A stretch of 16,324 bases of DNA, from contig CAYLZE010000113.1 in the NCBI GenBank assembly GCA_964388035.1, positions 1-16,324 on the forward strand. Direction: 5' to 3'. Within the stretch, counting starts at the first letter, position 1. The number at the start of each line of letters is the position of its first letter. Below the pieces are notes generated by a model that was not told where the DNA came from, did no database searches, and saw only the letters and a list, made by a program, of their open reading frames with translations. This document shows positions 357 to 1,574 of this stretch, in pieces. This DNA comes from an uncultured archaeon. GTDB lineage: Archaea; Asgardarchaeota; Lokiarchaeia; Sigyniarchaeales; SOKP01. Both the position numbers and the translations under genes were made by a program.

Positions 357-1574
357 TTAATTTTGCAATTTTAAATCTAAGGTTTTATATATAATTTTAA
401 TTTTTTCATTAATTATATTTTTCCATTTAAAATTCTTTGAATATATTTCTACATTAATTAAAAAATTATTAATTTGTTGTTTTTCTTTTTCTTTTAAAAT
501 ATTGCTTTGAAAAGTATTAAAGAGATTCAAAAATTTGATAATTATATTAAAATATTTATCCGAAAAGTTATTTTCAATTAAAAATTTGTGATGATGATAT
601 AAAACATTTAGTTTAAAACCGAATAATTCCAAGCAAAAATCAGAAGGAATAAGAATTTCCTTTTTATTTATATTTATTCTACAATACTGTATTTTTTGAT
701 TGATATTTTCACGTAATTCTGTTTTAATTACCACGTTTAAATCGTTTAATGTAAAAGTATTATTATTAATATAAACGGGAAACTCCGCTATTAATTTCAA
801 TTGAAGTTGAACTATATCAGCTTTGTTACTTTCTTCATTGCTTATATCAATTGTTATTACGTCATTCTTATCATGCCTTAATTTTGAATCTAATTTAGCG
901 GGAAATTTTAGATGTATAAGATTATTTGATAAAGCATTAGTTACGTAGGTGAAAATAGGTTCATTTAGGGAAATTTTCTTTTTTTCCTCATGATATTCCA
1001 TGTCTTTCCAAATTTTTTCAAGAAAATTAGTTAAGGCTACCAGCATTTTCATTTTCAATTTATTTATTTCAGAGTTCTTGGCGAAATAATTTTTAGGAAC
1101 ATTAATTTGAAACCACTCATTGAAATTCACCATTAAATGCTTTGGTACCAAGGGTATAATATCTTTAACAAGTAATTTACCAGAGGTCTTCCCGTTTTCA
1201 ATCTTATAATAGTTTATTTCATTACCCGTAATTACCAAGGATACAGTATTGTTAAATAAATTAACTTTATCAGCTAACATGTTATCATCAATGTGACTAT
1301 GAAAGATCTTACTTGAAGGAGGATGTGAATGATAGATTCCAATTGGGCCAATCCCATGAGGCATTACTGAACTTATTAGTTGAAACTCTTCCACTACTGG
1401 AATTGCACTGACGGGAGTTTGTTCAATAAATTGTTCACAAGGAGCAATACCAAGAATATTAAGTGTATCGTTTTCGGGATATCCCAAAAGCCAACCATAA
1501 ATTTCATTTTCATTTTCTGTGGCTTGAGTTTTTAAAGAATGGAGCAGACTTTCTGAAATTTGTAGTGTACTCAT
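357..1574 (-). CDS. JAMM/MPN+ metalloprotease with ODR-4-like C-terminal region
   Basis: N-terminal E24 (NEIYGWLLG) and GIYHSHPPSSKIFHSHIDD (H82, H84, S93, D96; HxH-x8-SxxD). About 270-aa C-terminal extension with blocks resembling ODR-4. Confidence 0.85.
   Translation of the reverse strand: MSTLQISESLLHSLKTQATENENEIYGWLLGYPENDTLNILGIAPCEQFIEQTPVSAIPVVEEFQLISSVMPHGIGPIGIYHSHPPSSKIFHSHIDDNMLADKVNLFNNTVSLVITGNEINYYKIENGKTSGKLLVKDIIPLVPKHLMVNFNEWFQINVPKNYFAKNSEINKLKMKMLVALTNFLEKIWKDMEYHEEKKKISLNEPIFTYVTNALSNNLIHLKFPAKLDSKLRHDKNDVITIDISNEESNKADIVQLQLKLIAEFPVYINNNTFTLNDLNVVIKTELRENINQKIQYCRININKKEILIPSDFCLELFGFKLNVLYHHHKFLIENNFSDKYFNIIIKFLNLFNTFQSNILKEKEKQQINNFLINVEIYSKNFKWKNIINEKIKIIYKTLDLKLQN

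What the first reader, a model, noticed from the sequence alone, without database searches (positions are those of the whole stretch)
357..1574. ODR-4-like protein that keeps an intact JAMM catalytic site
Seen: full metal-binding set E24/H82/H84/S93/D96. By-eye colinear matches to human ODR4 as recalled: ISSVMPHGIGPIGIY ~ VSRMLPGGLLVLGVF; KMLVALTNFLEKI ~ NTKNGLTRWAKQI; YINNNTFTLNDLNVVIKTELRENINQK ~ YIHSSKPKVKDAVQAVKRDILNTVADR; LIPSDFCLELFG ~ VLPYRVFVPLPG. No C-terminal TM helix. Established: eukaryotic ODR-4 is a non-catalytic MPN-fold, tail-anchored partner of the cysteine protease UFSP2. Inference: the ancestral UFM1 maturase/deconjugase was this metalloprotease, and ODR-4 is its inactivated descendant.
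Basis: partly seen in the sequence, partly recalled or inferred. Interest (0 to 1): 0.85.

Follow-up and report, generated by a model that had tools for sequence, protein, structure and literature searches.

The report
Asgard zinc protease with ODR4/UFSP2 fold
An Asgard archaeon encodes, inside an operon for a UFM1-type protein tag, an apparently active zinc protease whose predicted two-domain fold matches the catalytically dead scaffold that eukaryotes keep in both ODR4 and UFSP2, which suggests eukaryotes kept the scaffold and swapped in a different cutting domain.

Summary
ORF 357-1574 (-) is a 405-aa JAMM protein. E24/H82/H84/S93/D96 are present in 81 of 83 aligned relatives, and there is no membrane helix. 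It lies in a conserved Asgard operon with a UBA5-like E1, a UFC1-like E2 and a UFM1-like modifier; here the modifier reads through past its Gly, as in E2 fusions. The ODR4 link holds outside the MPN core. The model matches ODR4 (TM 0.62, 326 residues) but also plant UFSP (TM 0.66) and worm UfSP (273 residues aligned). The C-terminal part folded alone finds only UfSP2/UfSP. So it resembles the scaffold shared by ODR4 and UFSP2, not ODR4 alone. A complex model puts the modifier's tail at the metal site. The modifier ends at its Gly in 18 of 31 loci, so deconjugation is probably the core job; maturation matters where it is fused or extended. No C78 peptidase was found in 400 Asgard genomes (no positive control). 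Activity is untested. Descent is untested: no eukaryotic sequences were available for a tree, and dead archaeal paralogs exist. I found no paper describing this; the scan noted it earlier in another genome (e1-1924598).

The parts
357..1574 (-). 405-aa JAMM protein with a C-terminal UfSP2-N/ODR4-type domain (the finding)
1155..1574 (-). MPN+/JAMM domain, aa 1-140; E24 (1503-05), H82 (1329-31), H84 (1323-25), S93 (1296-98), D96 (1287-89)
522..1145 (-). alpha/beta domain, aa 144-351, matching the UfSP2 N-terminal domain and the second domain of ODR-8/ODR4
381..491 (-). two C-terminal soluble helices, aa 362-398; no TM anchor
29..292 (-). UFM1-like modifier, 88 aa ending in R-G-I-V-G
   Evidence: relative L023 hits Pfam Ufm1 at E 0.044; profile A4 hits PDB UFM1 6izg at E 0.37 with the C-terminal R-x-x-V-G aligned; invariant R84/V87/G88
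2..28 (-). in-frame read-through after the modifier's Gly; resembles the linker into the UFC1-like E2 of fused relatives; the contig ends here
   Evidence: E2 not found elsewhere in this assembly
1584..2417 (-). UBA5-like E1, 277 aa; C190 aligns with the UBA5 catalytic Cys motif
   Evidence: PDB UBA5 E 1.5e-49 against MoeB 6.6e-24
2432..3514 (-). conserved 360-aa operon protein with a C-terminal Zn ribbon; function unassigned
   Evidence: in 27 of 33 loci
3528..4463 (-). SPFH/Band-7 protein with a coiled coil, co-conserved with the operon
   Evidence: family in 24 of 33 loci
4522..5907 (-). winged-helix protein with a weak SNF8/Vps22 (EAP30) match, co-conserved with the operon
   Evidence: profile vs SNF8 3cuq E 4e-5; EAP30 in 6 of 13 members; in 15 loci plus a shorter form in 6

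Best explanation
This is the dedicated zinc peptidase of an Asgard UFM1-type tagging system. E24 activates a Zn-bound water (H82, H84, D96 ligands; S93 oxyanion) that cleaves after the modifier's terminal Gly. It removes the tag from conjugates and, where the modifier is fused to the E2 or extended (as it appears here), frees it first. The second domain helps hold the modifier. The same MPN-plus-second-domain scaffold survives in eukaryotes without its metal site, in ODR4 (with a membrane tail) and in UFSP2/ODR-8 (with a C78 cysteine protease attached). The simplest history is an active archaeal JAMM ancestor, then duplication and replacement of the catalytic domain. Shown: motif, conservation, gene context, predicted fold match. 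Inferred: catalysis, substrate, role of the second domain, direction of descent.
Confidence: 0.7

Rival explanations
1. The family is homologous to the scaffold, but eukaryotes inherited an already dead archaeal paralog (or a dead/active pair), so catalysis was lost before eukaryotes arose and this protein is a cousin rather than the model of the ancestor.
For: Dead paralogs with the same second domain exist in Heimdallarchaeota (L112-L115, E 1e-12 to 1e-17 to the C-domain profile) and in a Lokiarchaeote (P0144).
Against: The dead paralogs give no ODR4-like or UfSP2_N Pfam hit, are on long branches nested among active proteins, and have no UFM1-system genes in the flanks read. The weak ODR4 hits come from active members.
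Confidence: 0.15
2. One reading: this is specifically the ODR4 ortholog, and the N-terminal part of UFSP2 arose separately or later from ODR4.
For: The only sequence-level signal is to ODR4-like (8 of 83 members, best E 5e-4; 3 of 53 C-terminal parts), with none listed for UfSP2_N. The domain content (no C78 domain) is like ODR4.
Against: Structure scores are equal (TM 0.62 vs 0.66). ODR4 may simply have evolved more slowly. PMC13137144 already treats ODR4 and UFSP2 as sharing the scaffold.
Confidence: 0.08
3. The resemblance beyond MPN is convergent or a modelling artefact, and this is an ordinary operon JAMM protease with an unrelated tail; or the operon came from a eukaryote or another archaeon by transfer.
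For: Low identity, middling Z for the second domain, patchy distribution and a related operon outside Asgard.
Against: Both domains match in order and together. The isolated domain retrieves only UFM1-pathway proteins while the neighbours are independently UFM1-pathway-like. The intact metal site and deep archaeal diversity argue against a eukaryotic donor.
Confidence: 0.07

Closest known systems
ODR4 / C1orf27 (Pfam PF14778)
   Same: MPN domain followed by the UfSP2-N-type domain; Atlas TM 0.62 over 326 residues; UFM1-pathway context.
   Different: ODR4 lacks catalytic residues and has a membrane tail (PMC10952357, PMC3945108); this protein has the full JAMM set and no TM helix; below the Pfam cut-off.
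C. elegans UfSP/ODR-8 (PDB 5xda, 5ejj), mouse UfSP2 (3oqc), plant UFSP
   Same: aa 1-380 align with ODR-8 12-350; aa 144-351 with UfSP2 1-232.
   Different: These cut with a C-terminal C78 cysteine-protease domain, absent here; their MPN, where present, is not the catalytic domain.
Archaeal JAMM proteases CsRpn11 (6fnn/6fno) and PfJAMM1 (5lda)
   Different: They act on ubiquitin or SAMP and lack the 210-aa second domain.
Asgard Ufm1 homologues (PMC12962969)
   Same: A UFM1-like modifier in Asgard archaea is published.
   Different: The main text does not mention JAB, MPN, ODR or UFSP; PMC10183829 saw UFM1, UFC1 and UFSP2 only in eukaryotes.

Membership tests
MPN+/JAMM metalloprotease | E ... 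H-x-H ... S-x-x-D motif | tested here: met
   E24/H82/H84/S93/D96; 8 residues between H84 and S93 instead of the usual 7; 81 of 83 relatives
MPN+/JAMM metalloprotease | MPN fold | tested here: met
MPN+/JAMM metalloprotease | Zn-dependent cleavage after a Ubl C-terminal Gly | not testable with these tools
   only a complex model
ODR4 (PF14778) | MPN plus UfSP2-N-type second domain | tested here: met
   (predicted models)
ODR4 (PF14778) | Pfam ODR4-like score above 24.5 bits | tested here: not met
   query no hit; best relative examined 19.3 bits
ODR4 (PF14778) | degenerate metal site | tested here: not met
   site intact
ODR4 (PF14778) | C-terminal membrane anchor | tested here: not met
   no hydrophobic segment in the last 60 aa
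ODR4 (PF14778) | binds a UFSP2-type protease | not tested
   no C78 protein found in the genome to test
UFSP2 / ODR-8 | N-terminal scaffold domain(s) | tested here: met
UFSP2 / ODR-8 | C78 papain-like catalytic domain | tested here: not met
   no C78 hit in the protein; alignment to 5xda ends at chain residue 350
UFM1-type conjugation system | UBA5-type E1 | tested here: met
UFM1-type conjugation system | UFC1-type E2 with catalytic Cys | tested here: met
   in related loci; cut off by the contig end in this window
UFM1-type conjugation system | UFM1-type modifier ending in V-G | tested here: inconclusive
   V-G end invariant, but profile hits to Ufm1 are weak (E 0.044 and 0.37); not folded alone
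UFM1-type conjugation system | UFL1-DDRGK1 E3 and covalent conjugation to substrates | not tested
   no E3 search run; a winged-helix gene travels with the operon

The most novel reading that the evidence does not exclude
The pre-eukaryotic UFM1 system used a zinc JAMM protease as maturase and deconjugase. One active two-domain ancestor gave rise to both halves of the eukaryotic ODR4-UFSP2 complex; both lost the metal site and one gained a cysteine-protease domain. The Asgard operon would then be a reconstitutable ancestral UFMylation cycle, possibly linked to membranes through its SPFH and ESCRT-II-like neighbours.
Probability: 0.55. Interest if true: 0.85.

Novelty: new variant of a known kind. 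Interest (0 to 1): 0.72.

Why it matters
It would explain why ODR4 and ODR-8 carry a dead metalloprotease fold and why ODR4 and UFSP2 share a domain: both would be relics of the pathway's original enzyme. It gives a direction that the eukaryote-only comparison (PMC13137144, which proposes an ODR8-like three-domain ancestor) could not. It also extends the Asgard UFM1 record from the modifier alone to E1, E2 and protease, against a survey that saw UFC1 and UFSP2 only in eukaryotes (PMC10183829). Four small soluble proteins make the claim directly testable in vitro.

Tried and rejected
PF14778 over the own genome and 351 Asgard genomes found no family member; the one weak hit was unrelated. PF20908 (UfSP2_N) gave nine weak hits; those read were unrelated ORFs. 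PF07910 (C78) was not found in the own genome or 400 Asgard genomes, but the control was silent too, so this is 'not found', not absence. Sequence profiles A1 and A2 did not list UfSP entries in PDB, and no eukaryotic ODR4, UFSP2 or UBA5 sequence appeared in the protein searches, so no tree with eukaryotes could be built; I did not type such sequences from memory. Atlas feature searches were uninformative. No RNA holder was listed. DNA contigs of four runs cover parts of the locus with no indels but did not give the E2 continuation. The tree is the quick IQ-TREE version, not the careful one. Supplements of the two Asgard surveys were not held, so a listing there is not excluded. Rejected: 'stand-alone ordinary JAMM' (ordinary JAMMs form a separate group, and six of them gave no ODR4-like hit) and 'maturase only' (18 of 31 modifiers end at Gly).

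Full report
Observation. Window 357-1574 (-) encodes a 405-aa protein with a Prok-JAB domain at aa 16-119 (E 3.7e-9). E24, H82, H84, S93 and D96 are in the sequence and correspond to the active-site residues Glu24/His83/His85/Ser93/Asp96 of Caldiarchaeum Rpn11 (PMC6043591). All five are kept in 81 of 83 aligned relatives at about 15-40% identity. There is no membrane helix. The named close relatives are Asgard, mostly Promethearchaeota and Heimdallarchaeota.

Context. The gene lies 9 nt after an E1 and 64 nt before a small modifier gene on the same strand. The E1 is far closer to UBA5 (E 1.5e-49) than to MoeB (6.6e-24), with C190 on the catalytic motif. The modifier ends in an invariant R-x-x-V-G and matches Ufm1 weakly. 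In relatives it is followed by, or fused to, a UFC1-like E2 (Pfam UFC1 E 6e-10 to 1e-4) with an invariant Cys. All 33 loci have the E1, and 31 have modifier and/or E2. Across 400 Asgard genomes, 32 of the 33 with a strong modifier match also have this JAMM, and the exception is at a contig end (kin are not independent). Among 31 distinct loci the modifier ends at Gly in 18, is fused to the E2 in 9, has a 1-3 residue tail in 3, and reads through to the contig end in this window with a linker like the fused forms. The genome has other, distant JAMMs near other E1s, so this one looks dedicated.

Substrate. A complex model with Zn and the modifier of L001 (72 of 88 residues identical to this window's) scored 0.86 against a best control of 0.00. 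The mark was reached by 58 of 80 solved and 2 of 110 mismatched pairs in calibration, which holds only roughly here; runs agree in at least 72% of contacts and partner pLDDT is at least 84. All five catalytic residues and modifier residues 82-88 are in the interface, and so are second-domain residues 172-186 and 268-296. Those are more conserved than the domain average (0.48 vs 0.36, permutation p 0.0007; not independent of the alignment the model used). JAMM-Ubl complexes are solved, so the pass may reflect likeness and does not show binding.

Mechanism. Inferred from JAMM chemistry (established knowledge) and context: Zn-activated water cleaves after the modifier's Gly. Because most modifiers in the family are made mature, removal of the tag from conjugates is the likely core role, with release from the E2 fusion as an added need in genomes such as this one. 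The second domain probably widens the modifier-binding surface. No C78 peptidase was found in this genome (96.7% complete) or in 400 Asgard genomes, without a positive control.

History. A quick tree of archaeal members has the window protein in a supported Asgard clade, with separate groups for a second Asgard operon subfamily (H-K-H motif), a divergent group that includes the non-Asgard-type operon protein P0113, and ordinary JAMMs. Dead versions in Heimdallarchaeota and in one Lokiarchaeote nest inside the active clade at two places, so loss of the metal site with retention of the scaffold has happened within archaea. That supports the direction active to dead, but it also means ODR4 could descend from an already dead paralog. 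No eukaryotic sequences could be retrieved, so descent is not tested.

Comparison and novelty. It works like an operon JAMM deconjugase (CsRpn11, PfJAMM1) and is built like ODR4 and the N-terminal part of UFSP2. It is not a member of ODR4 (active site intact, no TM, below cut-off) or of UFSP (no C78 domain). Asgard Ufm1 is published (PMC12962969); UFM1, UFC1 and UFSP2 were reported as eukaryote-only in 2023 (PMC10183829). Five literature searches found no description of this protease or its link to ODR4/UFSP2, with the caveat that the library is partial. The scan reached a similar reading earlier in another genome; I had stated my reading before looking and count those notes as leads only.

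Verdict. Real, and better supported than a by-eye match. Rough odds: active protease for this modifier 0.85; homology of the second domain to ODR4/UFSP2-N 0.9; active ancestor of both eukaryotic proteins 0.55-0.6. New variant of a known kind, interest 0.72.

Noticed in passing
window 2432-5907 (-): Three genes travel with the operon: a 360-aa Zn-ribbon protein, an SPFH protein and a winged-helix protein with a weak SNF8/Vps22 match. They are candidate E3/scaffold or substrates and hint at a membrane link.
   Followed up: partly
L111:5989-7371: A Heimdallarchaeote has a second, active-looking copy with an N-terminal hydrophobic extension (KD 3.0), next to a duplicated E2; a membrane-anchored version, as ODR4 is but at the other end.
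   Followed up: partly
L112-L115; L110:6001-7317: Catalytically dead paralogs with the same second domain in Heimdallarchaeota and in a Lokiarchaeote, with no UFM1-system genes in the flanks read.
   Followed up: partly
L116-L125: A second Asgard subfamily of UFM1-type operons (E2, JAMM with H-K-H motif, E1, modifier), including Njordarchaeales.
   Followed up: partly
L125:2056-3252: This JAMM has an internal stretch with a weak ubiquitin-family hit (aa 233-289, E 5e-4).
   Followed up: no
L031:6659-8909; L109:2095-5008: A related UFC1-E1-JAMM operon with a longer H-to-S spacer; L031 is titled Methanobacteriota, so the system is not limited to Asgard archaea.
   Followed up: partly
L038:397-2229: A 611-aa ORF contains an internal copy of the UFM1-like domain (aa 197-273) without the terminal V-G; similar hits in G167, G168 and G170.
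   Followed up: no
window 7445-8173 (-): RNase PH family gene that by eye looks like bacterial RNase PH rather than archaeal Rrp41; possible transfer, unchecked.
   Followed up: no
window 6268-16044: The rest looks like housekeeping: GDP-mannose dehydratase (Pfam), and by eye PheA, PheT, PheS, a cytidylyltransferase-like gene, a small membrane protein and an acyl-CoA ligase.
   Followed up: no
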